A DNA stretch of 60,276 bases from Candidatus Woesearchaeota archaeon (lineage in GTDB: Archaea > Nanobdellota > Nanobdellia > Woesearchaeales > JABMPP01): assembly GCA_013202955.1 (NCBI GenBank), contig JABMPP010000101.1:1-60276 (forward strand), in the 5' to 3' direction. The notes under the pieces are model-generated. The model searched no databases, was not told the DNA's origin, and was given only the letters and a program-made list of their open reading frames with translations. Of this stretch, positions 5,403-45,100 are shown piece by piece. The position numbers were made by a program, and so were the translations under genes. Numbering within the stretch: position 1 is the first letter of the stretch; each line of letters begins with the position of its first letter.

Positions 5403-5424
5403 TTTTCACCTCTCTTTGAAAAAT

Positions 5425-5577: not shown

Positions 5578-5624
5578 ATATAATCTATTTAAATCTAATA
5601 ATATATAAATATATCTGTTTTAAT

Positions 5625-5993: not shown

Positions 5994-6045
5994 AATCTGT
6001 TCTCAAAACAAAAATGTTATAAATAATTTTTTATTCCATTCTCTA

Positions 6046-12854: not shown

Positions 12855-12865
12855 TTTGAAAGAAA

Positions 12866-16223: not shown

Positions 16224-16319
16224 ATTACATCTCACCTATTATTTTATTTATTCACCCTAGAATCTTTCTAAAGCGTATCAGCTAGACTTCTCCCATACTT
16301 TATAAAGTTAATGGAAAAA

Positions 16320-17267: not shown

Positions 17268-17314
17268 TATATACACCTCGTATTAGGAAAAAAGGGAAAG
17301 ATAAAAATCTTTCC

Positions 17315-17602
17315 TTAAACAACCATTTCTTCCCCAACTTCAACATCAAGGTTTTTTAGCACTAAATGTTCATATGCTTTGTTCAAAACCAGTGATGCTT
17401 TTGGCAGGTCATTTACTCTTAATGAGTTTGTTGACTGCCATTCATCGTTTTTGTCCTTATACCTTCTTTGCAGGCTTATTGTTCTAAATTCAGTTGGTTC
17501 GCCTGTCTTTGTTTTGCCCTCATTTACCCACACAGCAGCAGATATTGCTCCTGTTGTGAATCTTTTTTCAGGCATTTTTTTTTCTTCAGCCATTTTCATC
17601 AC
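17315..17602 (-). CDS. small putative ssDNA-binding protein (PC4/YdbC-like), tentative
   Basis: ISAAVWVNEGKTKTGEPTEFRTISLQRRYKDKNDEWQSTNSLRVNDLP resembles PC4/YdbC-type folds. It lies between radA and RPA. The call rests on weak recall only. Confidence 0.35.
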   Translation of the reverse strand: MMKMAEEKKMPEKRFTTGAISAAVWVNEGKTKTGEPTEFRTISLQRRYKDKNDEWQSTNSLRVNDLPKASLVLNKAYEHLVLKNLDVEVGEEMVV

Positions 17603-17635
17603 CTATCAAAAATTTTTAAAATTATTGGAGATGCT

Positions 17636-17652
17636 GGAAATCTTTGATTTCC
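17636..17652. promoter_or_regulatory. perfect inverted repeat GGAAATC-TTT-GATTTCC upstream of the 17315-17602 gene
   Basis: Read directly. It lies 34-50 nt upstream of the ATG at 17602. Further GATTTC(C/T) copies occur at ~17710 and ~17731. Confidence 0.35.
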
Positions 17653-17924
17653 ATCACCTATTATAATTTTGATATTATTGTTTTTTTAGTTTTTTAAATG
17701 GGTTTCCCGGGATTTCTCGTGGATCTTTCATGATTTCCAAAATAACCCAAAATATTTTTGGAAGAATAATTAAATAAGAAATATTTTCTGAAGATCCTTT
17801 GTGTTTTTCCAAAAATTCTCAATTTAATCACCCTTGCTATTCGCTTTTATTTCAATGGGTGAATTAAAGAAAGGATATTATTCTTTAAATAGTCTGTGTG
17901 AGAATTTGTCCAGTGTCCAGTGGT

Positions 17925-19022: not shown

Positions 19023-19118
19023 TAGTAACCCCTAAAACCAGAACCTTATTTTCTTTTTTATATTTTATGGTTTTTAAAAATAGGTTTTAGAAAATGCTAA
19101 TAGGAGTGGCATCTTTAT

Positions 19119-19952
19119 CTATATAAATCCAAGAGCAAACCCAATTGTTATGTTCCTGAACTTATTCTCACCCTCATCATAATCATAAACAGAAAAAACA
19201 TCACCAGTTTTAACAGAAAAACTCACAAATCTCTCTTCAGTGCATTTATCATTTGGAATATTGGAGCTATTACCACATCCAACAACCTCCCACTCAACAC
19301 CATCTTGTTTATACTCTTGTATTTTTGTGTTTATACATCCCATAAACCCATCCACATCAAAACAACTCCAAATTAACTCAGTAGATTGTGTTTTTAGTTT
19401 ATCATAAATAGATAAATCATAATCCATCTCTGTTGTGAATGAAGGCTTTATCGAATATGTTATGTTGCTCTTGTTTAAAAAAATATTTCTTGTGGCAATT
19501 CCTGTTATTTTTGTTTTCCCAACAACAAAATCATAGTTGTTTAATGATATGTTGTATGGGGTTATCCTTAATTGTTCATCCAGGTTATACTCAAAAAATC
19601 CAATAAATGAGTTATAAACATCTGGGAAGCATTCATCTGTTGAGTTTTTCCATACTTTTACTCCCATATATTCACCACAACCTTGTTCATAAAAAAAACC
19701 GGAATTTTTTCCTAAATCATACACACTCTGTTTAGCAGCAAATTTTGAGGCTAGATCAACATACAATAATACTTTTTCACCTTGATTATAAATATTAAAA
19801 AGTTTGAATTGCCTTTCACCTATAACCAAATCATTCCCCTTTTCATCTCTAAACTTGGCTTTTTTTTCACTAACAACAATTAATCCAGAAATTAAGATAA
19901 CTATGCTTATGAGAACCAATCCAATACTAAATATATGTGCTTTTTTATTCAT
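19119..19952 (-). CDS. pilin-like/N-terminally anchored protein, last gene of giant operon
   Basis: MNKKAHIFSIGLVLISIVILISGLIVV. The start overlaps the upstream stop. Confidence 0.6.
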   Translation of the reverse strand: MNKKAHIFSIGLVLISIVILISGLIVVSEKKAKFRDEKGNDLVIGERQFKLFNIYNQGEKVLLYVDLASKFAAKQSVYDLGKNSGFFYEQGCGEYMGVKVWKNSTDECFPDVYNSFIGFFEYNLDEQLRITPYNISLNNYDFVVGKTKITGIATRNIFLNKSNITYSIKPSFTTEMDYDLSIYDKLKTQSTELIWSCFDVDGFMGCINTKIQEYKQDGVEWEVVGCGNSSNIPNDKCTEERFVSFSVKTGDVFSVYDYDEGENKFRNITIGFALGFI

Positions 19953-20539
19953 TTTGTCTGAATACCAGGCGTTCCTCTAAATTCAATAACCTTGAGATTT
20001 ACTTTAACCTTTTCTTCATAACCTATTGGAACAGGAATGAATAATTCACTTTCTATTAAAGAACCTTCATCACACATTCTATAATCTCTCATCTCTTCTA
20101 TCTCATTTGAGAATCCTTTTTTTTTGTAAGAAAATGTTTTTTCCTCTTCATCCTTCAAAATATTAAACTCAACCCCACAAAAAAACCCTCTTTGATTATC
20201 CCAAAGCATGCTCAGAATCTTTTTTGTTTTCTCCATTAATAATTTGTATGCTTCTGAGTCATCATCCTCAAGATTAGTAAAAACAACCAACTCACCAACA
20301 GTCATATTTTCTTTTATATTATCATTATTAATATCAATCTCAACAGGAGATCTTACAAAATTAATCAGTGTTGTTCTAACATTCATGTCACTTCCCTCAC
20401 TGCTGATTGTTTCTGTTATTCCCCCTTTCACAAACTGGAAAAGTATAGCAAATATAATTATAACAAACACCCATGCACCATATGCATAAAAATCAACTAA
20501 TATGCTTCCAACTGAACCTTTTTTTCCTTTCATTTTCAT
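19949..20539 (-). CDS. N-terminally anchored protein, operon member
   Basis: MKMKGKKGSVGSILVDFYAYGAWVFVIIIFAILF. There are 4-nt overlaps on both sides. Confidence 0.6.
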   Translation of the reverse strand: MKMKGKKGSVGSILVDFYAYGAWVFVIIIFAILFQFVKGGITETISSEGSDMNVRTTLINFVRSPVEIDINNDNIKENMTVGELVVFTNLEDDDSEAYKLLMEKTKKILSMLWDNQRGFFCGVEFNILKDEEEKTFSYKKKGFSNEIEEMRDYRMCDEGSLIESELFIPVPIGYEEKVKVNLKVIEFRGTPGIQTK

Positions 20540-21054
20540 CTGTTTTGAATTATCATCATAACATTTAATGTTCCTTCTAATGTTCTATTTCCATCTTTTA
20601 TAACCACATAAAGCTCCTTTTCTTTTCCCTTAACTCCTCCCAATCCTTTTGTAAATCCTGCTTCCAGTAAAACCTCTTTTTCAATGAAAAAATCTCTGTT
20701 ATACATTATTTCCTCATTTATACTTCCATTAAAATCTTTTAATGATATTCTTGCTCCAACATCTCTATTTTCTTCACCATAATATATTAGGTTATCAAGA
20801 TCAGTACTCTTAAACTTATCAAAATCAACCATTCCAGGATACAATCTTCCTGTTACTTCATCAAAATATGAAAAATGATTTCCATAAACCAATCTTTGGA
20901 AAAATACTTCTGCCTGAGCATCAAAAACATCTATTTCTGTTTTTATATTTGCACCCAACAACACGACTATTGAAAGAACCACAACTATAAGAAACCCAAG
21001 TCTCGGCAGAAACGCAAGCAGGTTAAGTGTGAACATTGCTCTTTTGTTTTTCAT
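20536..21054 (-). CDS. N-terminally anchored protein, operon member
   Basis: MKNKRAMFTLNLLAFLPRLGFLIVVVLSIVVLLG. Confidence 0.6.
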   Translation of the reverse strand: MKNKRAMFTLNLLAFLPRLGFLIVVVLSIVVLLGANIKTEIDVFDAQAEVFFQRLVYGNHFSYFDEVTGRLYPGMVDFDKFKSTDLDNLIYYGEENRDVGARISLKDFNGSINEEIMYNRDFFIEKEVLLEAGFTKGLGGVKGKEKELYVVIKDGNRTLEGTLNVMMIIQNR

Positions 21055-21056
21055 TT

Positions 21057-22070
21057 TTACTCAAAATAATCTTTTATTCCATCAATTATTGATAATGCTG
21101 TTTTGTCTTTTTTATTTAGGATATCTTTATCAGCTTGAATATTTCCAAGCTCTAACAACACAGATACTGGTTTTTGAAGAATAATATCTTCTGATGGTAT
21201 TATTGAAGCACCAGTGATATCATCATATTCATCCAGCAAGGAATTTATTATGTTGCATGCGAGTTTTACGCTTTTCTTGCTCTCAAAAGGCACAAACGCC
21301 TTTATGTTGTTTATCTCTTCATCATCTTCTCCCACGTGCATACTTATTAAAATATTTGAGGAAGATTGTCCAATCACCAATAACCTTTTATCCATTGGTC
21401 TCTCAGAATCATACCTTACATCTCTTGTGAACTCAACAAAAAAACCCTCATCTTTCATATCTTCCATATACAAACCAAAAACTCTTGCTATCTGTTGTGT
21501 TATCTTTGATTCGTTTAATGCATCATTTGTGTTTACAAAGCCAGAATCACTCCCACCATGTCCTGCATCAATTATCATTCTCTTTTTATCTTCTTTTGTT
21601 TCAACAACAGGGCAATCAATCTTGTTTAGGTTTTCCTTTATATCTCCTCCAATCCTTAATCTATTTGAGGATCTGATGAATATTAGCTCTCCTGTTCTCA
21701 TAAACCCAATACTTAGAGGAGAAAAGAATATTTTGTTGTCAGCATATGGAAATTTAATTGTTTGTTCTCCATTTTCTTCCAGAACTCCTGCTCTTTGCTC
21801 ATTAAAACCAAAGCTAAAATCCAATAAATCTATGCTTCCAAAAGAATAACCAACATTAATCTTTCCAGGAGCAGCATAAACAGAATCAACCATTAAAGCA
21901 ACATCTCTTGCAAGATAATTCTTTTCCAGTAATGTGTTATCTCTTATTGAGTTAACATAAGCAAGCAGAATAACAAAAACCATCACTGTTAATATTAGCT
22001 CAGCAATAAAAAAGAAAAGCTCTTCATTTACTTCACCCTTTTTCGAACTAAATAACCCTCTTTTTCTCAT
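21057..22070 (-). CDS. membrane-anchored N-acetylmuramoyl-L-alanine amidase (Amidase_3-like catalytic domain)
   Basis: N-terminus MRKRGLFSSKKGEVNEELFFFIAELILTVMVFVILLAYV. The C-terminal domain has MIIDAGHGGSDSGF (Zn His), NESKI (Glu), ILISMHVG (His) and LLELGNIQADKD...ALSIIDGIKDYF, the complete signature of MurNAc-LAA. Confidence 0.7.
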   Translation of the reverse strand: MRKRGLFSSKKGEVNEELFFFIAELILTVMVFVILLAYVNSIRDNTLLEKNYLARDVALMVDSVYAAPGKINVGYSFGSIDLLDFSFGFNEQRAGVLEENGEQTIKFPYADNKIFFSPLSIGFMRTGELIFIRSSNRLRIGGDIKENLNKIDCPVVETKEDKKRMIIDAGHGGSDSGFVNTNDALNESKITQQIARVFGLYMEDMKDEGFFVEFTRDVRYDSERPMDKRLLVIGQSSSNILISMHVGEDDEEINNIKAFVPFESKKSVKLACNIINSLLDEYDDITGASIIPSEDIILQKPVSVLLELGNIQADKDILNKKDKTALSIIDGIKDYFE

Positions 22071-22111
22071 AACATAGAATCTGTTGTAAATTGTATATAT
22101 AAATTTTGCTT

Positions 22112-23305
22112 TTAACTCTCTGGACACAACTCATCTTCAGGCATATTTTCTAGAATCCCAACAGAATCAATATATTTTTTGAAATGAATAATCTTTTCTC
22201 CTGTAATCTGGAAAAAAGTATCACTTAGAAACTCAGCAGGAACATCTTCATGCACATATAATGCATCAATAACAGCTGTTTCAAATTCAGGAAATCTATT
22301 CTCAACAATTTCAGTATTCAAGCCCTCATTTACTATTTCTATGGATTCAGGATCTTCTAGGGTTATTTTATCATATCCAACAGTTATTGTGTAATTTTTT
22401 GGTAGTTTTATAGGTAAAGAGCTACAATAACAACTTTCACTACTCTCATTTATATTTCTGGAAACACATTCATCAAAAGAATCCAGTATTTTCTTAAACT
22501 CAAGATACGCCTTGATATTTGAGCTTCTCTTTTTAATGTCATCAGTTCTTAAAGTTATCAAAATATTTATTTTATTATCATCTCTTTCAAATTTTTCCAA
22601 ATAAACTGTTTGTGTTCCCCACGACTCTTCACATCCAATATCACCGTCGCTACTATATTCTCCATATCTGAATAAATAGCTGTAAGGAACATCTACATCT
22701 TGCAATGACATATTATAAGAATCTATGATTGAATCTGAATCCCATTTTACATAGGAATTCCATGTACTTCCTTCTGATGTTCTCCATTCTTTATTAAAAA
22801 GTCCTGTTAAAGATATGCTTCGCCTGAAAAAAACAATATCTTCATCAAACATCTTACAATCAACTGGTCCACCCTCTTCAATATTAAAATTATTTCCTAG
22901 TCTTTGATTATAATTAAAAATACAAATGCATGCATTCTCCCCACAAATAAAAGGTTTTTCCAGTATTTCTCCTGCCCCACATTCAGTTCTAACCGTATCA
23001 TCTCCAGCAAACTTCTTACTTCTCAGAGTAGAATCCCATTCTTTGTCAAATCCAACTATAACATATTCTTCTTCAACATTTAATGGAGTAATTTTAGACT
23101 CAAATCTTTCATCATTTCTAAGAAGATCCTGGATATTATAATACAAGTCATTAAGATTTGTTCTGGAAGCCAATCCCTCTGGCTCTTCTTCTATTATCGG
23201 AGTACATTTTATAAACAGAGCTAATGAGAAAAGAACAATAACAATTCCATATCCAAGGCCGCCTGCGTCAGTAACACCAATCCCTTTTTTAAAGAATTTC
23301 TTCAT
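22112..23305 (-). CDS. N-terminally anchored protein, operon member
   Basis: The internal Met gives MKKFFKKGIGVTDAGGLGYGIVIVLFSLALFI. ~397 aa with scattered Cys. Confidence 0.6.
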   Translation of the reverse strand: MKKFFKKGIGVTDAGGLGYGIVIVLFSLALFIKCTPIIEEEPEGLASRTNLNDLYYNIQDLLRNDERFESKITPLNVEEEYVIVGFDKEWDSTLRSKKFAGDDTVRTECGAGEILEKPFICGENACICIFNYNQRLGNNFNIEEGGPVDCKMFDEDIVFFRRSISLTGLFNKEWRTSEGSTWNSYVKWDSDSIIDSYNMSLQDVDVPYSYLFRYGEYSSDGDIGCEESWGTQTVYLEKFERDDNKINILITLRTDDIKKRSSNIKAYLEFKKILDSFDECVSRNINESSESCYCSSLPIKLPKNYTITVGYDKITLEDPESIEIVNEGLNTEIVENRFPEFETAVIDALYVHEDVPAEFLSDTFFQITGEKIIHFKKYIDSVGILENMPEDELCPES

Positions 23306-23310
23306 CTTTT

Positions 23311-23733
23311 TTACCCAAACAAACCAGGTTCTTTGCATTCAACTGTTTCTGTTAAAGTTATGCTATACTCAATCTCTTCAGCACAGCAATAATCATTATA
23401 CTCAGATTTTGCTACATATTTGCATTTAGCTATGTCTGCATCATCTTTATCCTTATCACACGCATCAGGAATTTTATCACCATCAGCATCTTCCTCATTA
23501 TTCCCACCAAGACAATCATCATATTTATCACATATATTGTCATTATCATTATCCACTACATCTTCATCATCTTCACAACTACTTATCTCAATATCTGAAA
23601 TAGCAGATTTTGTGAAATCCATAGCAAACAAAGTCCCCCCAGATAAAAAATAAATAGCAAAGCCCACCACAGCAAATACCAAAATAAAATCTCCTATTGT
23701 TCTCAACATTGACGCGGCTTTTTTCATTTTCAT
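23311..23733 (-). CDS. pilin-like protein with Asp-rich thrombospondin-type-3-like Ca-binding repeats
   Basis: MKMKKAASMLRTIGDFILVFAVVGFAIYFL, then DNDNDNICDKYDDC...DADGDKIPDACDKDKDD. Confidence 0.6.
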   Translation of the reverse strand: MKMKKAASMLRTIGDFILVFAVVGFAIYFLSGGTLFAMDFTKSAISDIEISSCEDDEDVVDNDNDNICDKYDDCLGGNNEEDADGDKIPDACDKDKDDADIAKCKYVAKSEYNDYCCAEEIEYSITLTETVECKEPGLFG

Positions 23734-23954
23734 CATGTTATGCTTATACAACAAACCTCCTCATTCTCACACCCTGCTAACAACAGTGTTTTTCCATTAC
23801 AGTCTTCTGTGCAGCTTCCACCTCTTTCCTCGCAATTGTTTGACTGTTCAAAAAGAGAAAATTTGTCATAAACTAAAAATAATAATACCCCAACAACTGC
23901 TAAAACAAGCACAAACTTGATTATTGTTTCTATTGTCATATCAGCTTTTTTCAT
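23733..23954 (-). CDS. 6-Cys mini-pilin (class III signal plus Cys knot)
   Basis: MKKADMTIETIIKFVLVLAVVGVLLFLVY...CEERGGSCTEDCNGKTLLLAGCENEEVCC. Confidence 0.65.
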   Translation of the reverse strand: MKKADMTIETIIKFVLVLAVVGVLLFLVYDKFSLFEQSNNCEERGGSCTEDCNGKTLLLAGCENEEVCCISIT

Positions 23955-24238
23955 CTTTCCAGTGGCAGACAGCATTGTCCAAACCCTTTTCCTTCTTCCT
24001 TAGTCCCATTATAATTATAATAAGCACAGTCTTTTGCAAGAACCTTTATTGGGTAAGAAGATTCATCACATTTTCCGCTTGTTGAACATTTTCCACCCTG
24101 TTCATCACATGTTCCTCCAACATTGCTGCTGAATATCTTTACCTTGTCAGTAAATATTGCTAAAAGAACAACAAGCACAACTAACCCAATTGCCGCAACT
24201 ATTAGAATATTTATTGTTAAATCCGCTTTTTTCTTCAT
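23951..24238 (-). CDS. 6-Cys mini-pilin
   Basis: MKKKADLTINILIVAAIGLVVLVVLLAIF...CDEQGGKCSTSGKCDES...DCAYY...GQCC. Confidence 0.65.
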   Translation of the reverse strand: MKKKADLTINILIVAAIGLVVLVVLLAIFTDKVKIFSSNVGGTCDEQGGKCSTSGKCDESSYPIKVLAKDCAYYNYNGTKEEGKGFGQCCLPLER

Positions 24239-24260
24239 TTTAACCTCATTATTTATTTTT

Positions 24261-24722
24261 TTATGTAAAACCTAATTCAAAATCAACCTGCTTTAATAAT
24301 AAATCAACATCTTCTGAGTTTTCATCTTCCCCAAGCTCTTTTTTATACTTTAAAAGAAGTTTTTTTGCCTGTATATAATGTTCTGCATTAAAATCTGCTT
24401 CTCCAAGGAAAAAAAGCTCTTCCTTAGTTAGTTTTAACTGCTCTTGGATTTTTTCATTTGGAAAGCATCCAACAAATTCATTATGCAGTTCAGCAGATGC
24501 AACACTTTGTTTGTTTTTTATTGACTCCTTAATATTTGTTTTATAATAACTATATGTTTTCTCTGTTTCAATACATTTTGTGATTATTCCTTCTGCTACC
24601 CTGGATGTATCTCTTATTCCACCAAGATTAATATAAAAAGCTAAACTCAATGTAGCCAAAACTAGTATTATTGCACCAATCTCTTTAGGTCCTACTGCAC
24701 CTTTGTTCCCAATCATTTTCAT
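24261..24722 (-). CDS. pilin-like N-terminus, helical C-terminal domain, operon member
   Basis: MKMIGNKGAVGPKEIGAIILVLATLSLAFYI. Confidence 0.6.
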   Translation of the reverse strand: MKMIGNKGAVGPKEIGAIILVLATLSLAFYINLGGIRDTSRVAEGIITKCIETEKTYSYYKTNIKESIKNKQSVASAELHNEFVGCFPNEKIQEQLKLTKEELFFLGEADFNAEHYIQAKKLLLKYKKELGEDENSEDVDLLLKQVDFELGFT

Positions 24723-24877
24723 ATAAGTCTCTCAAATATATCAAGATTGTTTGACATGTATAACCATAAAATTCCCACAAGCACCATAAGAACCGCACCC
24801 AATATTACCCAAAAAATTGTCTGTCCAGTGAATTCCATTCCCCAAAATGCTTTTTTATTAAATCCCATTTTATTCAT
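24719..24877 (-). CDS. 52-aa single-TM protein (below ORF-track cutoff), operon member
   Basis: Manual translation gives MNKMGFNKKAFWGMEFTGQTIFWVILGAVLMVLVGILWLYMSNNLDIFERLI. Its stop overlaps the next start as ATGA. Confidence 0.5.
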   Translation of the reverse strand: MNKMGFNKKAFWGMEFTGQTIFWVILGAVLMVLVGILWLYMSNNLDIFERLI

Positions 24878-24901
24878 ATTGTATCCTAAACTATATATTT
24901 T

Positions 24902-25747
24902 TTATCTATTCCTCTCTTGTCCAACAGGAAGGTATGTGCAGCTTAGATTATATAAAATCTCTGGAATATAAGGTGTTAACACTAAACTTGAGTTCCAATC
25001 AGCTGTTTTGTCACTTCCCATGGTATAACCCAATATAGCTCCACTTGCACCACCAGCTGCTCCAGCAACCCCAACTAAAGCGGATCCACCACCTGTAAAA
25101 GGTATTAATGCAGCACCAAAAATTATTGTACCTAGACTTCCACCCAAAGCTCCTGATGCCCATTTTGACATATATCCTTCTTTTCCATACACAAACAATG
25201 TTGAATAATCCATTTCAGTGTTTATGTCAGGAAAAATTGTTTGTGTTGGCTCGCTCTCATCATATGTTGAATACCCAACAAAGAACTCCTCAAAACTCAT
25301 CTCACCTGTTGGAATATTATGTGTTTTTAGGTATCTCCTAAATCTGTCCGAGCTTATCTTCTTTTCTTTGTCTCCAAACTCAATAACACTGCACACTGCA
25401 CAATGTTTTTCCTCTTTATAATCATTTGAAAATAGGTTTAATTCTCCTCTATGAAACTGGTCAAAGCATTTATACATTGCCATAGCTATCTTATCCATTA
25501 TTATCTCATCATCACTTTCAGGAATAACTAAATTCTCACTTGGACAGTTTATCTCAGAGCCAAACTCCATTCCCAATGATCTTGATTTTGAGTATGCAAA
25601 AACAGTTGATTTGCAGATTGCTGTTCCTAATTTTTCATCCTTTAATTTATCAACTCTTGCTTGAAATAACATCAAAACAAGCATAAGTGCTAATACAACA
25701 ATCAATCCAATAACCATTTGCATAGATATGTCTGCTCTTTTCTTCAT
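24902..25747 (-). CDS. pilin-like N-terminus, Cys-containing domain, Gly-zipper C-terminal segment (paralog A)
   Basis: MKKRADISMQMVIGLIVVLALMLVLMLF; CPSENL; CAVCSVIEF. C-terminus: GALGGSLGTIIFGAALIPFTGGGSALVGVAGAAGGASGAILGYTMG. Confidence 0.6.
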   Translation of the reverse strand: MKKRADISMQMVIGLIVVLALMLVLMLFQARVDKLKDEKLGTAICKSTVFAYSKSRSLGMEFGSEINCPSENLVIPESDDEIIMDKIAMAMYKCFDQFHRGELNLFSNDYKEEKHCAVCSVIEFGDKEKKISSDRFRRYLKTHNIPTGEMSFEEFFVGYSTYDESEPTQTIFPDINTEMDYSTLFVYGKEGYMSKWASGALGGSLGTIIFGAALIPFTGGGSALVGVAGAAGGASGAILGYTMGSDKTADWNSSLVLTPYIPEILYNLSCTYLPVGQERNR

Positions 25748-25748
25748 T

Positions 25749-36100: not shown

Positions 36101-39100
36101 TGACATAATACTCTCCTTCCCAAGTATATCCTTGGATGTTTATCATTATGACTGATATTTCTGACGATTCATTCTGTGTAACACTCACATCAATCATACC
36201 AAGTGTTTCAGAAGCAGTAACATTTATTGGTATTAATCCTTGTTTTGCATACTCAACAGATGATATCTCAAATTCTGGTATGGTTTCATCAATCTCAAAC
36301 ACATATCTATACATTATCCAGTTCCCAACATTTGTTACAACACTTACCTCAATCCAATACTGCTCTTCCTGTAACTCACCCAATTCTAATTTTATAATTT
36401 TTTCTGTTATATCAATATCTTGGTATGATCTCTTGCTCATATTGCTGAACACATAGCTTAGATCATCAAACACAATGTTTTCTCCATAGAACTCAACAAC
36501 AAGATCTGCTGAATCACTAACAGAAACATAGTTTACATAATCTGTTCCACAAACAGATGGATCAAGGAAGATATTCTCATTTAGTTTTACAAGAGGAGCT
36601 GAAGGCAACCTTGTGTCTATTGTTATTTCCCAAGATTCAGAGTTAGAGTTTCCATGAACATCTTCTGCACTCACATTAACAGAGAAGGTGGTTTTGTTGT
36701 ATCCACGTGATAAGTCTGTTGTTGGATTATATATAAGCTCTCCAGTGCTCTTATAATATATTAATCTTCCATGATAAAAACTATATGTAAGATCATATGT
36801 TATGTTGTGTTCTGTTTCTATTTTTGAGTTAGTTAGAGGCATTCCTCTTAATTCCATAACAATTGTACTTGCATTTACCCCAGACGAATCAGTTAATATT
36901 GTTTTTATTGTTGTATATTGGTTATTTGTTATGTGGTCACCCATGGGGCTCTCACCAGGCTCGTCCAATTCTATCTCAGGACCAACAATATCATACTCAA
37001 CCTCTAATTCTTCACTGCTCTGCAATCCTGCTGGATTTGTTGCTTCAACAGTTATGTAATTAACACCATCATCAAGATTAATTGTTAAAGAGAACACACC
37101 ATCATCACTGGTTTCATAATATTCATCATAATCAACAGCTTCAACAAATGTTTCATCAGTTGTATAAGTTGATGTTGCTGTTCCAGTTATTGTTAACTCC
37201 TGAACATCTGTCTTAAAATTATTTTGGGGGTGAGATATACTTATTACAGGAGCATTGCTATCTCTTGTTATTGTTATTGGATCACTTTTTGTGTTTCCGG
37301 CTCTGTCAATAATTGTTGCGGTTATTGGATTTTCTCCATTTTCTAATAATATGTTAGCAGAAAAATCACCTCCAGCAATGATTGCGATTGATGTATAATT
37401 ATTTGCGCTGTTTGTTATTGTGATTGAATCTGAATCAACATTATAATTATCACTAAATGTTCCTATTATTGTTATATAATCATCTGAAACAGTTGTGTCT
37501 ATGTTATTTATTAGAATTGAAGGGAGAGTTATATCATAAATAATCTCCTTAGATCGTTTAATACTTAACCAAACACTATCTGTTGCTATGTAGTTCAGCT
37601 CATTAACTTCTTCAGCAAGATTTAAATCATAACTAAACGTATTATCTGTGAGATTCTCTGACAGATTAATTGGGTTTTCGTTAATATAAAAATACAATAT
37701 TGTTTTATCTTCACCAGGTATAACAGACCCTGTTGTTGTGAATATTTGCTCATTCACATATGTTCTTGGAAGTGAAGGAGAGCTAATTTGTATATCTGGG
37801 AGATCATTGTTTAACTCAAATGTTGTTGTTTGTGTTATAATATTTCCCGCATTATCAACAGCTGTAACATTAAAGATATACTGGCCGTTTATCAATCCTT
37901 CATCAGGCGTGAATCTTAGGTAAGAGCCAAATATGCTAACTGTTCCATTAATAGTTGTATTATACCAACTCAACAATATTTCTGAAGCTTCATAATCAAC
38001 CCTAGATAATGAATCATAAAGTTCAGCATACACTATTTCAGCATTAGCCAACATTGTTAAATTTTCAGGCGCAATATTTACAATTTCAGGTTCTGTTTCG
38101 TCATAAAGAACTGATGTGGAGTTTAAGCCGGTGTTGTTTGCGGAATCATTCACAACAATCTCAAAATCATATATTTTTTCTAGAGTCATGTTATACTCTA
38201 TTGAAAATACCCCATCCTCACTTTCAATATCATATGTTGCAATAACATCTTCCACAAACACACCATTAACATATAATTCCACAATTCTTCCATTTGTTGC
38301 TCCAGAAATCACAACTGTTTCCTGATTTGTTGGGGTGTCTACATCATCCAGCATAACATATGGGTCAACAGTGTCAACAATAAATGTTGTTGAACCCTCT
38401 CCATTATTTCCTGCAGCATCTGTTCCTGAGGCTGTTATAACAGCATCACCCTCATAACCAGCTCTTACTGAATAATCTCCTTCCCAAGTATAACCAATTG
38501 TGTTGGTCATGCTTACACTTCTTTCTGATGATTCATGTTGTTCAACAACAACATCTATTTCATCAAGAGGTTCAGAAACAACAACAGTTATTGGAATGGA
38601 TTCTTGTTTTGCATAACTAACAGTTGATACTAAGAATTCTGGATCTGTTATATCAATCTCAAACACATATCTATATGTTACCTGATTTCCAACATTTGTT
38701 TCAGCATAAACCTCAATAAAATAATATGGTGTCTCAGTCAGATTAGATAAAGTTAAATATATTTGTTCAAGTGTTACATTTACAGTACTGTCAGTTATCT
38801 TTTGATTTGGGCCGAATGTATAGCTTAATCCAGAAAGCTCAATATTATCAGCCCCAAAATTCACACTCAATACAGCTGTTTCATATATATCAATATAATT
38901 TATATAATCACTTGGTCCTGTTGTTGGTGTGAGTGTTTTGCCCCCAACAACAACATTGGGTGGTGATGGAATCCTGTTGTCTATTGTCACACTCCAGGTT
39001 ACTGAAGCAGTATTTCCTATTGAATCATCCGTTTCCACATATATTATGTATATTCTTCTATCTTCTCCATTCAATAAATCTATTCCAGGAACATATACAA

Positions 39101-42100
39101 GATCTCCTGTGTTTTTGTAATAAGTCAGAGTTCCTTGATAAAAATAACTTGATAGATTATATATTATGGTATCACCAGAGTCTGTTGGATGTCCTGTTAT
39201 TTCTATACCACCAGTTTCTCCAATTCTCATAACAATGCTCTGCCAGTCTATTCCAGAACCATCATATAAATTAGATGATATTTCCACATAAGGATCATTT
39301 GTTATTGTTTCGCCTGTGTTTATTATTGTTGGAGATATTGTGTCATCCACAAAAAACAATATTTCTGTTGAGCTAAACTCTCCAAATGTATCAGTTGCTG
39401 TTAATATTAATGTGTAGTTTCCATATCCTAAAGCAAGAACTTGATCTGAGAAAGCATATGGATCAACAACACCAGCAACATTCTCTGTTTCTTGCCTTAC
39501 TATATTATCATCTTCATTTTTTATAATATACTCTATTATCATATCCGGGCTTTTTTCAGAAATATCAGAGGTTATTGTAAAATTATCTCCTGCTTCTATA
39601 TCATCCCTAACAAAAACATTATCTATAAATGGTGCTGTTGTATCTAAAACAATATTAATGCTGTCTGGAAGCTCTCTTCCAAGTGTATAGTTGATTATCT
39701 TTTTTGCAACAATCTCAAACAAATAATTATTATCAGTTAATCTATCTGCTTCAAAATAAAATAATGTAAAATTCTCTAATGTAGATATGTTTATATTTTT
39801 TGATACACCTTCCAAACTTAACTCATATGAATCAATTGAAATATCTTCATTGAAGCTAGAGTTTATATCAAACTTAGTATCATTTGTATACCATGTTGAC
39901 CTTGCTTCGCTGTTAAAATAACCAGCATCAAAAGCCGAATTAACAGAATATTCTGGATAATCAGGCACACTTTGATCTATTGTAAAGCTCCATAAATCTG
40001 TTCTTGGGTTCCCAGCTCTATCTTCCATGTATAGCTCAACATCATAATCTCCATCACCCAATATTCCTGGCTCAAGCTCAATAGAATATTCTTCACTAAA
40101 GTCATCTGATGGTGTGCATGTTATCTCAGCATCACCACATCCATAAGAAGTGCTGTTGAAAGTTAACTCAATTGAACTTTTTATTATTCCTGAAACATTT
40201 GTTACAGAATTATCTGCATCATTTATTGTTATCTCAATATTTGTGTTATTATTCTTTAGAATCATATTATTATTTGGATATTTGTTTGTAATCACTGGAC
40301 TAGTTATATCATAAATTATATTTCTTACTTCTTCTTGTGCTTTACTTCCCTCAACACCATGCTCATCAAATCCAACAGCATAAATCCAGTTGTTTCCTTC
40401 TGTTAATGAATTAAGATTAAATCCAAACCATCCAGTTGGATATAATAAGGGGTATAAGTTAACAAAATCATTTTCACTAACCACTTCTTCCAAATCTGGT
40501 GTGAACTCTAAATATGTTAAATCTGAATGAATTATGTTTGTTATTGTGTAATATTCTCTGTTAAATCTTGGATAACTTATAAACTCAATATAGCTTCCGT
40601 CTCTTGAACCATCTAACACAACACTGTTGTTTTCAATATCTATAGAAAAAATATCCACATTAAGCTCAGCAGCATTGTTTTGTGCAGCACTCATGATTGA
40701 ACCAAATGTTCCCCAATTATGTGGAACCCCTATATTATCTGTAACTATGTTTGATCTTAATGTTACATTTTGATTTGGAATAGAAAATATACCTATTTTA
40801 GAAAATCCAGCAACAAATATTGGATTGTTTGTGTATTCCTCCAATCCAATATTATCTATTTTTGGCTGTTCTGGTCCTCTTGTGTCTATAACAAATAATT
40901 CTGGAGTTATTAGGTGTCCTGTGTTGCCATGAGAATCAGTTCCTGTCATAATCCATCTTGTGTTGTTTTCATTATCATCCAATCTATTGAAAAAACCAAT
41001 TGTTGGAACTTCTGTTGTTCCTGTGAAACTATACATTCCTTGAACATTGAAAAGCACAACTGATTCACCTTCATAATAATCAGCAGCGTTAAGTGGTTTG
41101 TATCTCAAACTAGGTATTTTACTTAATGGCTCACTTGAAAAAATATTTATTGTATAAACCTTGTTCCTTATCATTAAGTCTGTTTGTTGACCATTTTTAT
41201 CAAGTATTTCTACAATGAATTCTGGTACTGTGTTATCTTGAACATTGAACCATTGCTGTAATATTCTTTGATTATTGAATCTGTCTTTTGTGGTGTATGT
41301 AATATTCCATGTTCCTGTTTCTTCAGTATAAGAGCTAGGTAATGTTCCTTGATTAAACTCAAATGTTTTTATGAAATTTTCATTATCTAATTTATCAAGA
41401 TCCGCTGTCCAAGTTCCATCAGGATAATCTATATCAACAGAAACAGTGTTGTCCTGATATCCAAGCGCTGTGTATTGAGTATCACTTATCCAAGCCTCAA
41501 TTGTTATGTTTGATCCCCATTCAACATAATTATCATTATCATTTTGAACCTCAACACCAAATACATCTTCTCTTACCTCGGGCTCTTGTGTGAATTCAGG
41601 ACCAACTAAATCCAGATAAACAGTTATTGAATCACTTCCATCATTTCCTGCAAGATCCCAACCATAAACCATAATAACATTCCAGCCAGGAGAAAGTAAT
41701 GGAAGATCCCCTGAAAATGAGTTTCCAGTAATGCTGAGATTTGAGATTCTATCAAATAAACTTTCATTTGTAACAACAACTCTTAGATACTGTAATCCAC
41801 TATCATCTGACCATGTTCCATCAACAGTGTGACCAGTAGCAATGTTTGTCATATAATTTTCAAGAGGATAATCAATTGTTATATTCAAAAGCTGATTGTC
41901 TATGTTTATGAAAGCATGATTAACCTCTTCAAAATTATCCTTCCAATCAACAGATCTATAATAGAAATCCTGTGAATTTTCAATAATGATTGGTTCACCA
42001 TTGTAAACTGAATAACTATTACAATCAATATCATCACAAATATATATCTCTTTGCAACCAGCTTCTCCAGGATACTCAAAGCTTGAGCTTAGGTTTTCGT

Positions 42101-45100
42101 CATCACACTCAAGATAAAAATCAGTTTGATCTGTTATATAATATGCTAATGGATTGAATAAATGAGAGCCATAATTATTAGTGTATGTTAAGGTTGTTTC
42201 AGGGGGAATTCTATCAACAGTGAATAAATACCATGAGGTGTCAAGAATATTACCATCACCCCCGTAGCACCCTATAGGGAAAAAGTAGGTTCCATTTGTT
42301 CCAACATTATAGCTTTTGTTGTGTAGTTTGCTATTTCCTGGTCCCTCTCCAACAAAATCCATAGATATCCATGTGTTTGTGTCATCATAAAATCCACATA
42401 CTGCAGTACCAAGTGCAGATGGTGTCTTTAGATGAAACATTATTGTGTTGTATGTGAAAATATTATTCAGTCTTTCTTCATCATCTATTTCTGTTGTTAT
42501 ATTGGTGTCTGGGAACTCATCATAAATTACTTGAATTCTATCAACATCAATCAGCTCTCTAACTGTTTCTATATTTCCACTTTCATCAACACAATTAACA
42601 GTATATATATATAATCCATCTTCTAATCCAAAGTAGTCTGCATTAAAGCTTGTTTTATATAAGTTGCCTATAATATCATCCCCTGTTATTGGAGTTTCAT
42701 AAGCATCAGTAAGAATATCATCAGAGCAATCCGACTCTACATCAGTTGTTATATTTATAGAGAGTATTGATTCAAATGGGTCAGAATCATTTAATCTTGC
42801 CCACTCAACATCTATGACAGGACCTTGTGTGTCAATATACAATGCAACAGACTGGATCTCTTCAGTGTTTTTGTGATAATCACTTGAAAAGAATCTTATA
42901 TAAGATACACCTTGTGGAAGATTCTCATCATAATCATTATTTGGAAGAGCAAGAGATATAGTGAAATTCTCTCCTTGGGTTTTTTCCAAATTATTGAAAT
43001 CAAATTTCTTATTAGGATTACATGAATTATCATTATCAATACAGTATCTTATCTTTATATTATTATAAAATCTCATTCCAACTGTGTCATCACCCAATCC
43101 TTCAATATTGAATATTAAAGTGTGTCCATTAGAATTTATAATAGGAATATTATTTGTGAGTGTTGTGATTGGTGGTTCACTATCCTCCCTACACAATCTG
43201 TCAATATTTGAGTTTTCTCTACAATCATTTTCACTGTCCCCATCTCCATCCTTATAACATCTTGGTATGCCGTCATGCTCAGGATCTCCCCATTTACATC
43301 TGTTTAATTCACATGCATCTAAACTGTAATCAAAATAATCATAGCTTTCCCAGCCTTGCTCAAAAAATGGAATCTCAAAATCCTGTGTTTGACTAAAACT
43401 GTATTTGTCTATTCCATTACAGCTTGTTTCATCATCATATAATTCACATGTTGCACTCTCATCACACTCAGCGCAATAATCACCATTATCATCCGAATAA
43501 CACATTCCTAATCTTGAGCAAACATTATAATCACATAATGGATTATCAAATGGAGTGTTTTCTTCTTTATTGCACAAACCACACTGATCTGTTTCTTCAT
43601 AATATGGTTTAAAGCAAACTCCTTCATTAAAATCAGGGTATCCATAATATTCATACCATGTGCATGCTTCATTATATGGCTCTAGACTCCATGCTGAATC
43701 GCATCTGTCTTCATCACATGCACCCTCTGACCTGTATCCAAAGCAACTGATATCAGGATCACAATTATAACATGAATCAACTGTTGTGTTGGAATAATCA
43801 TAATAACAATAATTATCATCATTTTCGCATGACTCAGCTGTGTGATATAATCCAAATGGCTCTCCTCCTTCATAGCTGCATGAAATCGCATTCATACAAC
43901 TTGCCTGTCCTAAAAATTCAACACAAACATAACTCTCTCCTCCATTTTCTGGATGTGTACAATTTATTTCATTCTCTAACTGATTAAACTCATCACAATA
44001 AACACCTTGTGTAAGTGGGGGTGGAGTAAAACTATAACCAGTGTTTAGGCAAAACTCATCTCTTAAACCCTTGTTTTCACATAATGGATTACCTGGATTT
44101 CCATTTCTTGTAACTCCATTAGTTAATCTTGGCCCATATAATCCAACAGTGTATCTTGCCCATATTGTGTATTCATAATCTATATCCCACATCACATCTT
44201 CATCAACATAACCTGTTTCCTGATTGTCAAAAATAATAACTTTCTCAACTTCTCCTGAACCAACAATTGTTTTATTTATATAAAATACCTCAACCCAATC
44301 AGCGCATGCACTATACCATTCTAAGTTAAGCACTCTCTGCCCTTGCACATTGGTTACTGAGAAATCAACTATCTCAGGAGGATCATCATAATCACACCCA
44401 ACTCCTTCCTGAAGTGTAAAATTATAATAATTGTATCCTGGCCCAACAGTTATCAATGTTCTGTTTCTTATATATCCGTTCTTAAAAACATCTGCAGTCC
44501 ATGTTCCAAAAGGCACTCCAAGTAATTCATAATAACCAAGAACATTTGAGATATCAGATACATCCGCTACATTAACATCCACTCCATTAACAGCATCTCC
44601 ATCAGTGTCTTTTACATAACCATAAACAGTTGCTGTATCAGCAGGTGTTGGGCAATCACCATCTTCCATATATCCACCAAGCTCACAGCAGAATCCAGTG
44701 TCAGCTCTATTGAAATCTACTTGTGATCCATCCCAAGCTGTGTCAAACTCATATTCCTCATTTCCACACCAGCAAACAGTGTTATTTTGAAATAAATATC
44801 CTGTTGGATTTATGTTCCCTATATCTGAAATATTTGTGTTAAGAATACAATTAGGGATAATACAATCAGTAAAACATGCTGTTATGCTTCCGCATGAACC
44901 TTGGTGAACATCATCAGAAACAATATCATTGCATGACCAATCATATTCACAGCATCCATAACTATAATCCAAATAACACCCATTGTCACAACACTTCTGT
45001 CCATCACTGCAATCATATTCAGTTAATTCATCTAATTCGTCAGCACATAAATAACAGCAGCTTTCACCTGCTGCCTGACATGAATTACTACATTGAGAAT

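What the first reader, a model, noticed from the sequence alone, without database searches (positions are those of the whole stretch)
21057..22070. Intact peptidoglycan amidase (MurNAc-L-Ala amidase, Amidase_3-like) embedded in an archaeal pilin-like operon
The C-terminal ~175 aa carry the full signature: IIDAGHGGSDSGF, NESKI, ISMHVG and LLELGNIQADKD...IIDGIKDYF. The three Zn ligands and the catalytic Glu positions are therefore conserved. Archaea of this type are not expected to have murein, so the likely substrate is foreign (bacterial) cell wall. The enzyme is membrane-tethered by a pilin-like N-terminus and co-encoded with a giant adhesin. This fits a contact-dependent wall-breaching or host/prey-interaction role, or a horizontally acquired bacterial gene put to a new use.
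Basis: partly seen in the sequence, partly recalled or inferred. Interest (0 to 1): 0.65.

Follow-up and report, generated by a model that had tools for sequence, protein, structure and literature searches.

The report
Pilin-anchored cell-wall amidase in DPANN archaeon
A tiny symbiotic-type (DPANN) archaeon, which should have no bacterial-type cell wall, encodes an apparently intact bacterial-wall-cutting enzyme fused to a pilus-subunit-like anchor, inside a conserved 20-gene surface-appendage cluster that in relatives carries four other kinds of wall-cutting domains, which points to bacteria as its targets.

Summary
Window 21057-22070 (minus strand) is a 337-aa ORF. Its C-terminal 170 residues match Amidase_3 over the full profile (E 7e-13). 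It keeps the Zn ligands H171/E187/H245 and the catalytic E307. A confident AF2 model (pLDDT 93.6) matches CwlD, AmiC2, CwlV and LytH.

The window is archaeal and DPANN-like: RadA, RPA, a fused PriS-PriL primase and long, probably intron-bearing tRNAs. Relatives lie in Woesearchaeota/Nanoarchaeota MAGs.

The gene is number 17 of a tightly packed 20-gene array behind a 5589-aa adhesin. All 20 genes begin with [KR][GA] plus a hydrophobic helix, as prepilins do.

New findings:
- The two-domain protein defines a large family (496 representatives at E<=1e-10).
- Only 46% of the 138 aligned representatives keep the full catalytic tetrad; this member does.
- The array is syntenic next to RPA-RadA, so it is chromosomal and old, not a recent transfer or a phage lysin.
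- In 8 of 14 related arrays the last gene carries SLT, GH73, M23 or M74 peptidoglycan-hydrolase domains.

Best reading: a modular prepilin-like protein that displays a murein amidase for contact with bacterial walls. Enzyme activity, prepilin processing and the target organism are untested. It is a new variant of known kinds. Interest 0.62.

The parts
21057..22070 (-). Gene for the 337-aa bimodular protein: a prepilin-like N-terminal part plus an Amidase_3 catalytic domain.
   Evidence: ORF list. Pfam Amidase_3 E 7.2e-13. AF2 model pLDDT 93.6, pTM 0.86. Foldseek top hits are all Amidase_3 enzymes.
22035..22070 (-). Residues 1-12, MRKRGLFSSKKG. This is a basic leader with two [KR][GA] motifs. 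The putative class III (prepilin) cleavage site is after G12.
   Evidence: Read from the sequence. 123 of 138 family representatives have [KR][GAS] 1-13 residues before the hydrophobic helix. Cleavage is inferred, not shown.
21942..22034 (-). Residues 13-43, the hydrophobic N-terminal alpha-helix (alpha1-like). E16/E17 sit at +4/+5 from the putative cleavage site.
   Evidence: AF2 helix 16-43. E16, F20 and E24 are invariant among the close homologues.
21591..21941 (-). Residues 44-160, the conserved carrier domain: helix 47-66 followed by seven beta-strands. It contains the EKNYLARD motif, D56 and Y75 (95% conserved) and C153.
   Evidence: AF2 secondary structure. Conservation. No Pfam or PDB sequence match.
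21072..21575 (-). Residues 166-333, the Amidase_3 (MurNAc-L-Ala amidase) catalytic domain. Key codons: H171 at 21558-21560, E187 at 21510-21512, H245 at 21336-21338, catalytic E307 at 21150-21152, and C272 at 21255-21257.
   Evidence: The domain aligns end-to-end with the CwlD-type amidase 4rn7 (query 165-336); matches to AmiA/B/C cover only its first part (query ~155-247), which fits an extra segment in those enzymes that this one lacks.
20536..21054 (-). Downstream prepilin-like gene, 172 aa (MKNKRA...). It lies 2 nt after the amidase stop.
   Evidence: Orthologues sit in the same position in L003 and L004.
19949..20539 (-). Downstream prepilin-like gene, 196 aa (MKMKGKKG...). It overlaps its upstream neighbour by 4 nt.
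19119..19952 (-). Last gene of the array, 277 aa, prepilin-like. It has a conserved N-terminal part of about 175 aa. Its orthologues carry variable C-terminal cargo (GH73, SLT, M23, M74, fn3). No hydrolase domain is recognisable in the window's copy.
22112..30171 (-). Fifteen further co-directional prepilin-like genes, of 47-408 aa. They include four paralogous Cys-rich proteins of 80-95 aa, which are candidate major subunits. All gaps are 59 nt or less.
   Evidence: Gene order is conserved in L001, L003, L004 and L045.
30168..46937 (-). Giant 5589-aa surface protein at the head of the array. It has CarboxypepD_reg, Big_13 and Glucodextran_B repeats, a basic-plus-hydrophobic N-terminus and a C-terminal transmembrane segment.
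22096..22103 (-). TTTATATA box 26-33 nt upstream of the amidase ATG. It may be an internal archaeal promoter for the four-gene module.
   Evidence: Read from the sequence. This is inference only, and the genome is AT-rich.

Best explanation
The gene encodes a modular, prepilin-like surface protein. It has four parts:
- a short basic leader (MRKRGLFSSKKG), probably removed by an archaeal class III signal (prepilin) peptidase;
- a hydrophobic alpha1-type helix that anchors the protein in the membrane or in the core of a type-IV-filament-like fibre;
- a small conserved alpha/beta carrier domain;
- a C-terminal zinc-dependent N-acetylmuramoyl-L-alanine amidase of the minimal CwlD/CwlV/AmiC2 type, which does not show the extra segment that interrupts alignments to AmiA/B/C.

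It is a position-conserved core component of a 20-gene array: a giant adhesin followed by 19 prepilin-like proteins. The array is inherited vertically next to RPA-RadA in Woesearchaeota/Pacearchaeota-type DPANN archaea.

The array most likely builds a surface appendage or tip complex that contacts bacterial cells. The amidase then strips stem peptides from the glycan strands of the bacterium's murein at the contact site. In relatives it is joined by glycan- or peptide-cleaving modules on the last gene of the array.

Shown here: the fold, the catalytic residues, the N-terminal motif, the operon structure, the synteny and the hydrolase cargo in relatives. Inferred: prepilin processing, filament incorporation, enzymatic activity and a bacterial target.
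For: - Amidase_3 HMM E 7.2e-13 over the full profile.
- H171/E187/H245/E307 are identical to the aligned residues of CwlD 7rag and 4rn7.
- AF2 pLDDT 93.6. Foldseek to CwlD, AmiC2, CwlV, LytH and AmiB gives E 1e-13 to 1e-11 and TM(target) 0.73-0.81.
- 19 of 20 array genes carry the [KR][GA]-plus-helix motif at the called start, and the 20th carries it at the start its orthologues use. Only 2 of 32 other ORFs in the window have it.
- Intergenic gaps are 59 nt or less.
- Gene order is conserved down to 31% identity and lies beside RPA/RadA in five loci.
- A related array contains a T2SSG pseudopilin-domain protein.
- The last gene of related arrays carries SLT (L004, L011, L013, L047), GH73 (L001; sub-threshold in L045), M23 (L012) or M74 (L036).
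- 12 of 14 arrays keep at least one plausibly active murein hydrolase.
- The window is archaeal and relatives sit in Woesearchaeota/Nanoarchaeota MAGs.
- The literature already suspects bacterial targets for DPANN SLT proteins (PMC8204110, PMC9723730) and shows that archaeal peptidoglycan hydrolases can kill bacteria (PMC12352652).
Against: - No enzymatic data exist.
- 75 of 138 family representatives lack one or more of the four catalytic residues, and 72 lack at least one Zn-binding His. Hydrolysis is therefore dispensable for whatever the family always does.
- Two arrays (L034 and the P0015 locus) have no recognisable active hydrolase.
- No curated pilin HMM recognises any array protein.
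- The carrier domain could not be searched structurally on its own.
- No assembly ATPase, platform protein or prepilin peptidase lies in the 60-kb window.
- The closest structural relatives, CwlD and LytH, need partner proteins for activity.
- The host or prey of these archaea is unknown.
Confidence: 0.55

Rival explanations
1. The amidase-like domain is mainly a non-catalytic module. It would be a peptidoglycan- or glycan-binding adhesin, or a purely structural minor subunit of the appendage. On this view the retained catalytic tetrad in this member is ancestral baggage or gives only marginal activity.
For: - Only 63-64 of 138 representatives keep the H-E-H-E tetrad.
- Both Glu residues, the LE[LI]GNI motif and the C153/C272 pair are kept far more often than the two His.
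- The N-terminal carrier domain is at least as conserved as the active site.
- The degenerate orthologues (L001, L004, L011, L013, L036, L045) occupy the same operon position.
Against: - This member and about half of the family retain every catalytic residue and the canonical DxGHGGxDxG, TRD and SxH motifs across deep divergence, as low as about 25-30% identity. That implies purifying selection on catalysis in those lineages.
- The window's array has no other recognisable hydrolase that could substitute.
Confidence: 0.25
2. The enzyme is active but works on a non-murein substrate. Candidates are pseudomurein of a methanogen host, a glycopeptide of an archaeal envelope, or the organism's own surface glycoproteins during appendage assembly.
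For: Woesearchaeota have been proposed to partner with methanogens (background from the DPANN literature, e.g. PMC5994134 listed, and my own knowledge). Amidase_3 belongs to a broad zinc-hydrolase fold: the more distant Foldseek hits include aspartoacylase-type enzymes.
Against: - All significant sequence and structure matches are to murein amidases.
- Related arrays recruit four further murein-specific folds (SLT, GH73, M23, M74) to the same module. That is hard to explain unless murein is the substrate.
Confidence: 0.12
3. The gene is a recent bacterial or phage import (an endolysin or autolysin), or bacterial contamination of the contig, with no integrated role in the archaeon.
For: Amidase_3 is overwhelmingly bacterial or phage-borne. 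BFVD structural hits are phage endolysins. A Peptidase_S74 tail-fibre-type domain occurs elsewhere in the window.
Against: - There is no tblastn hit in 50,697 phage records.
- No close relative lacking the carrier domain was seen: the word-indexed protein search returned only three two-domain relatives, and the top 150 profile hits are family members, nearly all spanning both domains.
- The gene is translationally packed between archaeal prepilin-like genes.
- The array lies beside RadA/RPA and is syntenic in many contigs.
- GC content is uniform at about 0.32.
Confidence: 0.03

Closest known systems
Minimal Amidase_3 murein amidases: CwlD (7rag, 4rn7), CwlV (1jwq), AmiC2 of Nostoc (5emi), LytH (7tj4)
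   Same: They share the fold (TM to target 0.73-0.81), the H-E-H zinc site, the catalytic Glu and a catalytic domain of about 175 residues; the alignment to 4rn7 runs end to end (query 165-336), whereas matches to AmiA/B/C stop at about residue 247.
   Different: Sequence identity is only 18-25%. This protein is fused to a prepilin-like helix and a novel carrier domain instead of a Sec signal, lipobox or cell-wall-binding repeats. It is encoded by an archaeon. A conserved Cys153-Cys272 pair links the linker to the catalytic domain. CwlD and LytH need GerS and ActH; no such partner is known here.
Bacterial modular type IV pilins, e.g. PilB/PilC of Streptococcus sanguinis (PMC8179133)
   Same: The architecture matches: a leader, a hydrophobic alpha1 helix, a small pilin module, a short linker and a grafted functional module. 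The gene also sits among several minor-pilin-like genes.
   Different: The module here is a murein hydrolase rather than a vWA or lectin adhesin. The organism is archaeal. The N-terminus does not match IPR012902/N_methyl or any curated pilin HMM. Incorporation into a filament is untested.
Large SLT-domain extracellular proteins of Pacearchaeota/Woesearchaeota (fam00969 in PMC8204110; also PMC9723730)
   Same: They come from the same lineages and carry the same inferred target, bacterial murein. The SLT proteins found here (L004, L011, L013, L047) are encoded three genes downstream of the amidase-like gene in the same array.
   Different: The catalytic class differs: an amidase against a lytic transglycosylase. 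The window's own array has no SLT domain. Those papers describe neither the amidase family, nor the prepilin-like N-termini, nor the operon context.
Secreted modular archaeal peptidoglycan hydrolases, e.g. Woldo/Danwoldo of Halogranum (PMC12352652)
   Same: These are archaeal proteins with bacterial-type murein hydrolase domains and conserved catalytic residues. Nanoarchaeota are highlighted as rich in them.
   Different: Those proteins were defined by a catalytic domain plus a known cell-wall-binding domain, carry Sec or Tat signals, and show a patchy, plasmid-biased distribution. This protein has no known binding domain, has a prepilin-like anchor, and is a vertically inherited operon component.
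Sulfolobus bindosome substrates: sugar-binding proteins with class III signal peptides (PMC3047682)
   Same: They show that archaea use prepilin-type signal peptides to install functional, non-filament proteins at the cell surface.
   Different: The cargo there is solute-binding proteins served by a dedicated Bas system. No Bas homologue was found here; the only hit was BasB at E 0.42.

Membership tests
Amidase_3 (PF01520, N-acetylmuramoyl-L-alanine amidase, MEROPS-unassigned zinc amidase) | HMM match above the curated threshold over the whole domain | tested here: met
   49.4 bits against a gathering cut-off of 27, E 7.2e-13, profile positions 2-173 of 174. 89 of 114 family members also match.
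Amidase_3 (PF01520, N-acetylmuramoyl-L-alanine amidase, MEROPS-unassigned zinc amidase) | Alpha/beta fold of the catalytic domain | tested here: met
   AF2 pLDDT 93.6. Foldseek probability 1.00 to 34 Amidase_3 chains, with TM(target) up to 0.81.
Amidase_3 (PF01520, N-acetylmuramoyl-L-alanine amidase, MEROPS-unassigned zinc amidase) | Zinc ligands His-Glu-His | tested here: met
   H171, E187 and H245 align with identical residues of 7rag and 4rn7.
Amidase_3 (PF01520, N-acetylmuramoyl-L-alanine amidase, MEROPS-unassigned zinc amidase) | Catalytic glutamate in the xxExG motif | tested here: met
   E307 in LLELGN aligns with the Glu of LIECGF in 7rag and 4rn7. It is kept in 119 of 138 relatives.
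Amidase_3 (PF01520, N-acetylmuramoyl-L-alanine amidase, MEROPS-unassigned zinc amidase) | Hydrolysis of the MurNAc-L-Ala bond of murein | not testable with these tools
   This needs recombinant protein and sacculi.
Type IV pilin-like proteins / archaeal class III signal peptide substrates | Short basic leader ending in [KR][GA], immediately followed by a hydrophobic helix of about 20-30 residues | tested here: met
   The N-terminus reads MRKRGLFSSKKG|EVNEELFFFIAELILTVMVFVILLAY, with an AF2 helix at 16-43. 123 of 138 relatives have the motif, as do 19-20 of the 20 array genes against 2 of 32 ORFs elsewhere.
Type IV pilin-like proteins / archaeal class III signal peptide substrates | Match to a curated pilin, archaellin or class III signal model (Pfam or NCBIfam) | tested here: not met
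   No such hit was found for the amidase protein or for the other array proteins scanned against Pfam (17 proteins plus the giant one) and NCBIfam (10 proteins). The only hit of this kind is a T2SSG domain in one related array.
Type IV pilin-like proteins / archaeal class III signal peptide substrates | Globular beta-rich head packed on the C-terminal half of alpha1 | tested here: inconclusive
   The model shows helix 47-66 followed by seven strands at 71-141. That is compatible with a pilin head, but the domain could not be searched separately and has no PDB sequence match.
Type IV pilin-like proteins / archaeal class III signal peptide substrates | Genomic association with a prepilin peptidase, an assembly ATPase and a platform protein | tested here: not met
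   None was found in the 60-kb window, and the window holds no polytopic membrane ORF. The rest of the genome was not available.
Type IV pilin-like proteins / archaeal class III signal peptide substrates | Leader cleavage and polymerisation into a filament | not testable with these tools
   This needs biochemistry or cryo-EM.
Modular archaeal peptidoglycan hydrolases as defined by Strock et al. 2025 | Catalytic domain plus a recognised cell-wall-binding domain (LysM, PG_binding_1, SH3 and similar) | tested here: not met
   Pfam finds only Amidase_3, and the N-terminal domain is unassigned. The protein would have been missed by that survey.
DPANN large SLT-domain proteins (fam00969, Castelle et al. 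2021) | Lytic transglycosylase (SLT/GH23) domain | tested here: not met
   No SLT domain was found in this protein or in any array gene of the window scanned. It is present in the orthologous last gene of L004, L011, L013 and L047.

The most novel reading that the evidence does not exclude
Woesearchaeota/Pacearchaeota-type DPANN archaea possess a conserved, vertically inherited appendage related to type IV filaments. Its minor subunits act as a plug-and-play platform for murein hydrolases. One is a fixed amidase-like pilin, which is active in about half of the lineages and has been converted to a binding or structural module in the rest. The other is a terminal pilin that swaps between SLT, GH73, M23 and M74 cargo. 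This would be a dedicated organelle for breaching bacterial walls. It would imply that bacteria, not archaea, are the ancestral hosts or prey of this very large DPANN clade.
Probability: 0.35. Interest if true: 0.82.

Novelty: new variant of a known kind. Interest (0 to 1): 0.62.

Why it matters
Who the hosts of the huge, uncultured Woesearchaeota/Pacearchaeota radiations are, and how they attach to them, is an open question. The only published clue has been scattered large SLT-domain proteins.

This analysis places an apparently intact murein amidase, and in relatives four other murein-hydrolase classes, inside one conserved, chromosomal cluster of prepilin-like genes headed by a giant adhesin. 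That turns a loose hint into a concrete molecular apparatus that can be tested:
- expressible enzymes with named active-site residues;
- a predicted peptidase cleavage site;
- natural active and inactive variants for comparison.

It would also extend the 'modular pilin' principle from bacteria to archaea and to enzymatic, wall-degrading cargo. Finally, it points to a class of archaeal peptidoglycan hydrolases that domain-architecture surveys requiring a known wall-binding domain would not have captured.

Tried and rejected
- AF2 with only the four close homologues gave pLDDT 35 and was discarded. The 114-sequence alignment was needed.
- The search for related loci with the 114-sequence alignment failed because no stretch was conserved enough. 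It was rerun with 11 sequences.
- The N-terminal 160 residues have no PDB sequence match even at E<=10. No Pfam or NCBIfam pilin model hits any array protein scanned. Pilin-likeness therefore rests on the motif, the operon and the model, not on homology.
- The homologue search for the 277-aa last gene returned only the L003 orthologue. No cryptic hydrolase could be shown in the window's copy.
- Hypothesis tested and not supported: that degenerate amidases are compensated by a hydrolase on the last gene. The counts were 6 of 8 degenerate arrays against 2 of 6 intact arrays, Fisher p=0.28, and the loci are phylogenetically non-independent.
- The phage-endolysin or provirus origin was rejected. 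There is no phage tblastn hit and the chromosomal context is syntenic.
- ARAGORN found no tRNAs, whereas Rfam found two long ones.
- No donor lineage for the amidase domain could be named. The nearest non-family relatives are too distant and the libraries carry no taxonomy.
- No assembly ATPase, platform protein or peptidase was found in the window or in the fetched flanks.
Full report
OBSERVATION. The ORF lies on the minus strand from the ATG at 22070 to the TAA at 21057-21059 and encodes 337 aa. An alternative in-frame GTG at 22127 lies inside the preceding gene. The three close homologues and the public gene call begin at the ATG.

Pfam Amidase_3 (PF01520) matches residues 166-333 over profile positions 2-173 of 174, with E 7.2e-13 and 49.4 bits against a gathering score of 27. 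NCBIfam gives sub-threshold similarity to CwlD, AmiA and AmiB. phmmer against PDB sequences finds CwlD (7rag, 1.6e-7), a C. difficile amidase (4rn7) and CwlV (1jwq). In those alignments H171, E187, H245 and E307 pair with the identical residues of the GHGG, SxH and xxExG motifs. These are the zinc ligands and catalytic Glu of this family (established knowledge of Amidase_3).

With a 114-sequence alignment AlphaFold2 gives pLDDT 93.6 and pTM 0.86. Foldseek returns only Amidase_3 enzymes at the top (CwlD, AmiC2, CwlV, Cwp6, LytH, AmiB, AmiP). E-values are 1e-13 to 1e-10 and TM(target) is 0.73-0.81. The viral library returns phage amidase endolysins.

The domain aligns end to end with the CwlD-type amidase 4rn7 (query 165-336 to chain 6-182). 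Matches to AmiA/B/C stop at about residue 247. This fits an extra segment in those enzymes, which I take from memory to be their auto-inhibitory helix, being absent here. The absence was not examined in the model.

ORGANISM. The window encodes RadA, an RPA-like OB-fold protein with an archaeal DUF2240 segment, a fused PriS-PriL primase, ABCE1, NFACT and a Trm61-type methylase. It also holds two tRNAs of 100 and 109 nt that Rfam finds but ARAGORN does not, which fits intron-bearing archaeal tRNAs. GC content is a uniform 0.29-0.39.

Family members found in species-representative genomes sit in MAGs labelled Candidatus Woesearchaeota and Nanoarchaeota. Two more are in TPA MAGs labelled Methanosarcinales, a label I did not check. 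The window's own contig is a 66.7-kb JGI metagenome contig. A DPANN archaeon of the Woese-/Pacearchaeota type is the reasonable assignment.

THE ARRAY. From the 5589-aa protein (30168-46937) down to 19119, twenty genes lie on the minus strand with gaps of -38 to +59 nt. The giant protein carries CarboxypepD_reg, Big_13 and Glucodextran_B repeats and a C-terminal transmembrane segment.

Nineteen of the twenty genes begin with a short basic leader that ends in [KR][GA] a few residues before a hydrophobic stretch of 18 residues or more. The twentieth shows the same motif at the internal Met where its orthologues start. Elsewhere in the window only 2 of 32 ORFs of 90 aa or more show the motif. Four proteins of 80-95 aa are Cys-rich paralogues and are candidate major subunits.

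This is the layout of a pilin or pseudopilin gene cluster. However, no curated pilin model recognises any member. The window contains no polytopic membrane protein, ATPase or peptidase that could be the assembly machinery. One related array contains a protein with a T2SSG pseudopilin domain.

The amidase protein starts MRKRGLFSSKKG|EVNEELFFFIAELILTVMVFVILLAY. The model has a helix at 16-43, a second helix at 47-66 and seven strands at 71-141, followed by the catalytic domain. Among 138 relatives, 123 have [KR][GAS] 1-13 residues ahead of the helix.

THE FAMILY. The word-indexed search of 5.8 billion clusters found only three relatives, at 57, 51 and 41% identity, all full-length. A profile search of 1.84 billion representatives found 3116 hits at E<=1e-3, 496 at E<=1e-10 and 56 at E<=1e-30. 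The best 150 are almost all proteins of 310-370 aa that span both domains. Pfam recognises Amidase_3 in 89 of 114 of them and nothing in the N-terminal domain.

In a MAFFT alignment of 138 near-full-length representatives, conservation of the catalytic residues was:
- H171 kept in 74;
- E187 kept in 109;
- H245 kept in 77;
- E307 kept in 119;
- the full tetrad kept in 63.

A lenient recount that allowed small misalignments gave 64. The usual replacements are Y, F, G or D for the first His and R, S, N or K for the second. C153 and C272 are each 94% conserved, which suggests (inference) an extracellular disulfide between the linker and the catalytic domain. D56 and Y75 of the carrier domain are 95% conserved.

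The window's protein is therefore one of the 'intact' half of a family in which catalysis has been lost repeatedly, while the scaffold, both Glu residues and the operon position are kept.

SYNTENY AND CARGO. Gene order is conserved gene-for-gene in L001, L003, L004 and L045. The array ends next to RPA, and usually RadA, in the window, L001, L045, L047 and the P0015 locus. The array is therefore chromosomal and old.

Downstream of the amidase-like gene there are always two small prepilin-like genes followed by a larger one. That last gene shares an N-terminal part of about 175 aa with the window's 277-aa protein, but its C-terminus varies:
- Glucosaminidase/GH73 in L001 (E 4.6e-8), and sub-threshold in L045 (1.6e-5);
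- SLT in L004, L011, L013 and L047;
- Peptidase_M23 in L012 (2.2e-14);
- Peptidase_M74 in L036 (2.9e-21);
- fn3 only, or nothing recognisable, in the window, L003, L016, L019, L034 and the P0015 locus.

Five different murein-specific catalytic folds recruited to one small module is the strongest argument that murein is the substrate of this apparatus.

I tested whether degenerate amidases are compensated by such cargo. The counts were 6 of 8 degenerate arrays against 2 of 6 intact arrays, Fisher p=0.28. The loci are not phylogenetically independent, so the idea is not supported. Twelve of 14 arrays retain at least one plausibly active hydrolase.

MECHANISM. The most likely sequence of events is as follows. 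The protein is inserted into the membrane and its leader is removed by a class III signal peptidase. It is then either retained in the membrane or incorporated through its alpha1 helix into a type-IV-filament-like structure, alongside the other 18 prepilin-like products. There it presents a zinc amidase that cleaves the MurNAc-L-Ala bond of bacterial murein at points of contact that the giant adhesin helps to establish. Of these steps, only the sequence and structural features and the genomic associations are shown. Processing, assembly, activity and target are inferred.

RIVALS.
(i) A mainly non-catalytic binding or structural role. The family-wide loss of the zinc ligands supports this. Strict retention of the whole active site in this lineage, and the absence of any other hydrolase in this array, argue against it.
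(ii) A non-murein substrate such as pseudomurein. This cannot be excluded, but the murein-specific cargo domains of relatives disfavour it.
(iii) A recent bacterial or phage import, or contamination. Synteny, gene packing, uniform composition and the lack of any phage hit reject this.

COMPARISON WITH WHAT IS KNOWN. Archaeal peptidoglycan hydrolases are documented, and one kills bacteria. Nanoarchaeota are noted as rich in them, but that survey required a known wall-binding domain, which this protein lacks (PMC12352652). Large SLT-domain proteins of Pace-/Woesearchaeota have been proposed to attack bacterial walls (PMC8204110, PMC9723730, PMC10936187, PMC11537232). Here they turn out to be the last gene of the same array.

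Modular type IV pilins that carry grafted functional modules are established in bacteria (PMC8179133). Archaea are known to use class III signal peptides for non-filament surface proteins (PMC3047682). Two surveys of archaeal type IV filament systems do not mention amidase or peptidoglycan. Among the papers returned by my full-text query, none co-mentioned the amidase's name with these taxa.

The finding is therefore a new variant that joins known kinds, not a new category. It is an enzymatic, murein-directed modular prepilin-like protein family in DPANN archaea, embedded in a conserved appendage operon.

VERDICT.
- half of the family is catalytically degenerate;
- the gene is anciently resident rather than recently acquired;
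- the pilin assignment rests on motif, context and model, not on homology or on nearby assembly machinery.

Interest is 0.62. The most novel reading still open is a dedicated organelle for breaching bacterial walls that defines the host range of a major DPANN clade. I give it a probability of about 0.35.

Noticed in passing
window 14965-15064 (+) and 12866-12974 (-): Rfam finds two tRNAs of 100 and 109 nt (53 and 51 bits) that ARAGORN misses. They are probably intron-bearing archaeal tRNAs. The second overlaps the 5' end of the Trm61-like ORF 12126-12914, so that ORF's true start is likely further downstream.
   Followed up: no
window 5845-7428 (+): A single 527-aa ORF combines DNA primase small-subunit (PriS / Prim-Pol) and large-subunit (PriL) domains. 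It is a fused archaeal primase, a fusion I recall being reported for Nanoarchaeum (from memory, not checked).
   Followed up: no
window 4121-5011 (-): A 296-aa protein has a C-terminal Peptidase_S74 domain (E 3e-16). This is the intramolecular chaperone of endosialidases and phage tail fibres. It suggests a self-cleaving trimeric fibre protein in an archaeal genome.
   Followed up: no
window 23733-23975, 23951-24238, 26898-27173, 27195-27452 (-): Four paralogous prepilin-like proteins of 80-95 aa share a Cys-rich C-terminal part (GG.C...C...CC). They are candidate major subunits of the appendage and have no match in any curated family.
   Followed up: partly
window 24902-25786 and 25749-26693 (-): Two paralogous prepilin-like proteins of about 290-310 aa (27% identity) end in Gly-rich hydrophobic segments. 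They are conserved in L001, L003, L004 and L045. Their function is unknown.
   Followed up: partly
window 22096-22103 (minus strand): A TTTATATA box lies 26-33 nt upstream of the amidase ATG, in a 41-nt intergenic gap. It may be an internal archaeal promoter giving a leaderless transcript for the four-gene module (amidase, 172 aa, 196 aa, 277 aa). The genome is AT-rich, so it could be chance.
   Followed up: no
window 48970-53559 and 53595-58583 (-): Two more giant surface proteins lie upstream of the array. One is a 1529-aa Cys-rich protein that starts MKRGQ plus a hydrophobic helix (prepilin-like). The other is a 1662-aa protein with fn3, purple-acid-phosphatase-N and BNR repeats.
   Followed up: partly
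L001 12122-14476; L004 12410-16075; L011 9264-12068; L012 12158-13966; L013 12285-15167; L036 12722-14950; L045 10261-13230; L047 10132-12300: The orthologues of the window's last array gene (19119-19952) share a prepilin-like N-terminal part of about 175 aa. They carry interchangeable murein-hydrolase cargo: GH73, SLT, M23 or M74. This looks like cassette-style swapping of the C-terminal module.
   Followed up: yes
locus of P0015 (JGI 3300072015, no DNA held), genes at 3838-5676 (-): A 612-aa protein with a T2SSG (PF08334) pseudopilin domain lies on the opposite strand inside a related array. It is the only curated pilin-type signature seen in any of these clusters.
   Followed up: no
window 46913-47677 (-): A 254-aa soluble, Lys-rich protein with no Pfam match overlaps the start of the giant adhesin gene by 25 nt. 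It may be a regulator of the array.
   Followed up: no
window 16000-32000: GC skew is strongly negative (-0.22 to -0.40) across the array, matching the minus-strand coding bias. It is much weaker elsewhere in the window.
   Followed up: no
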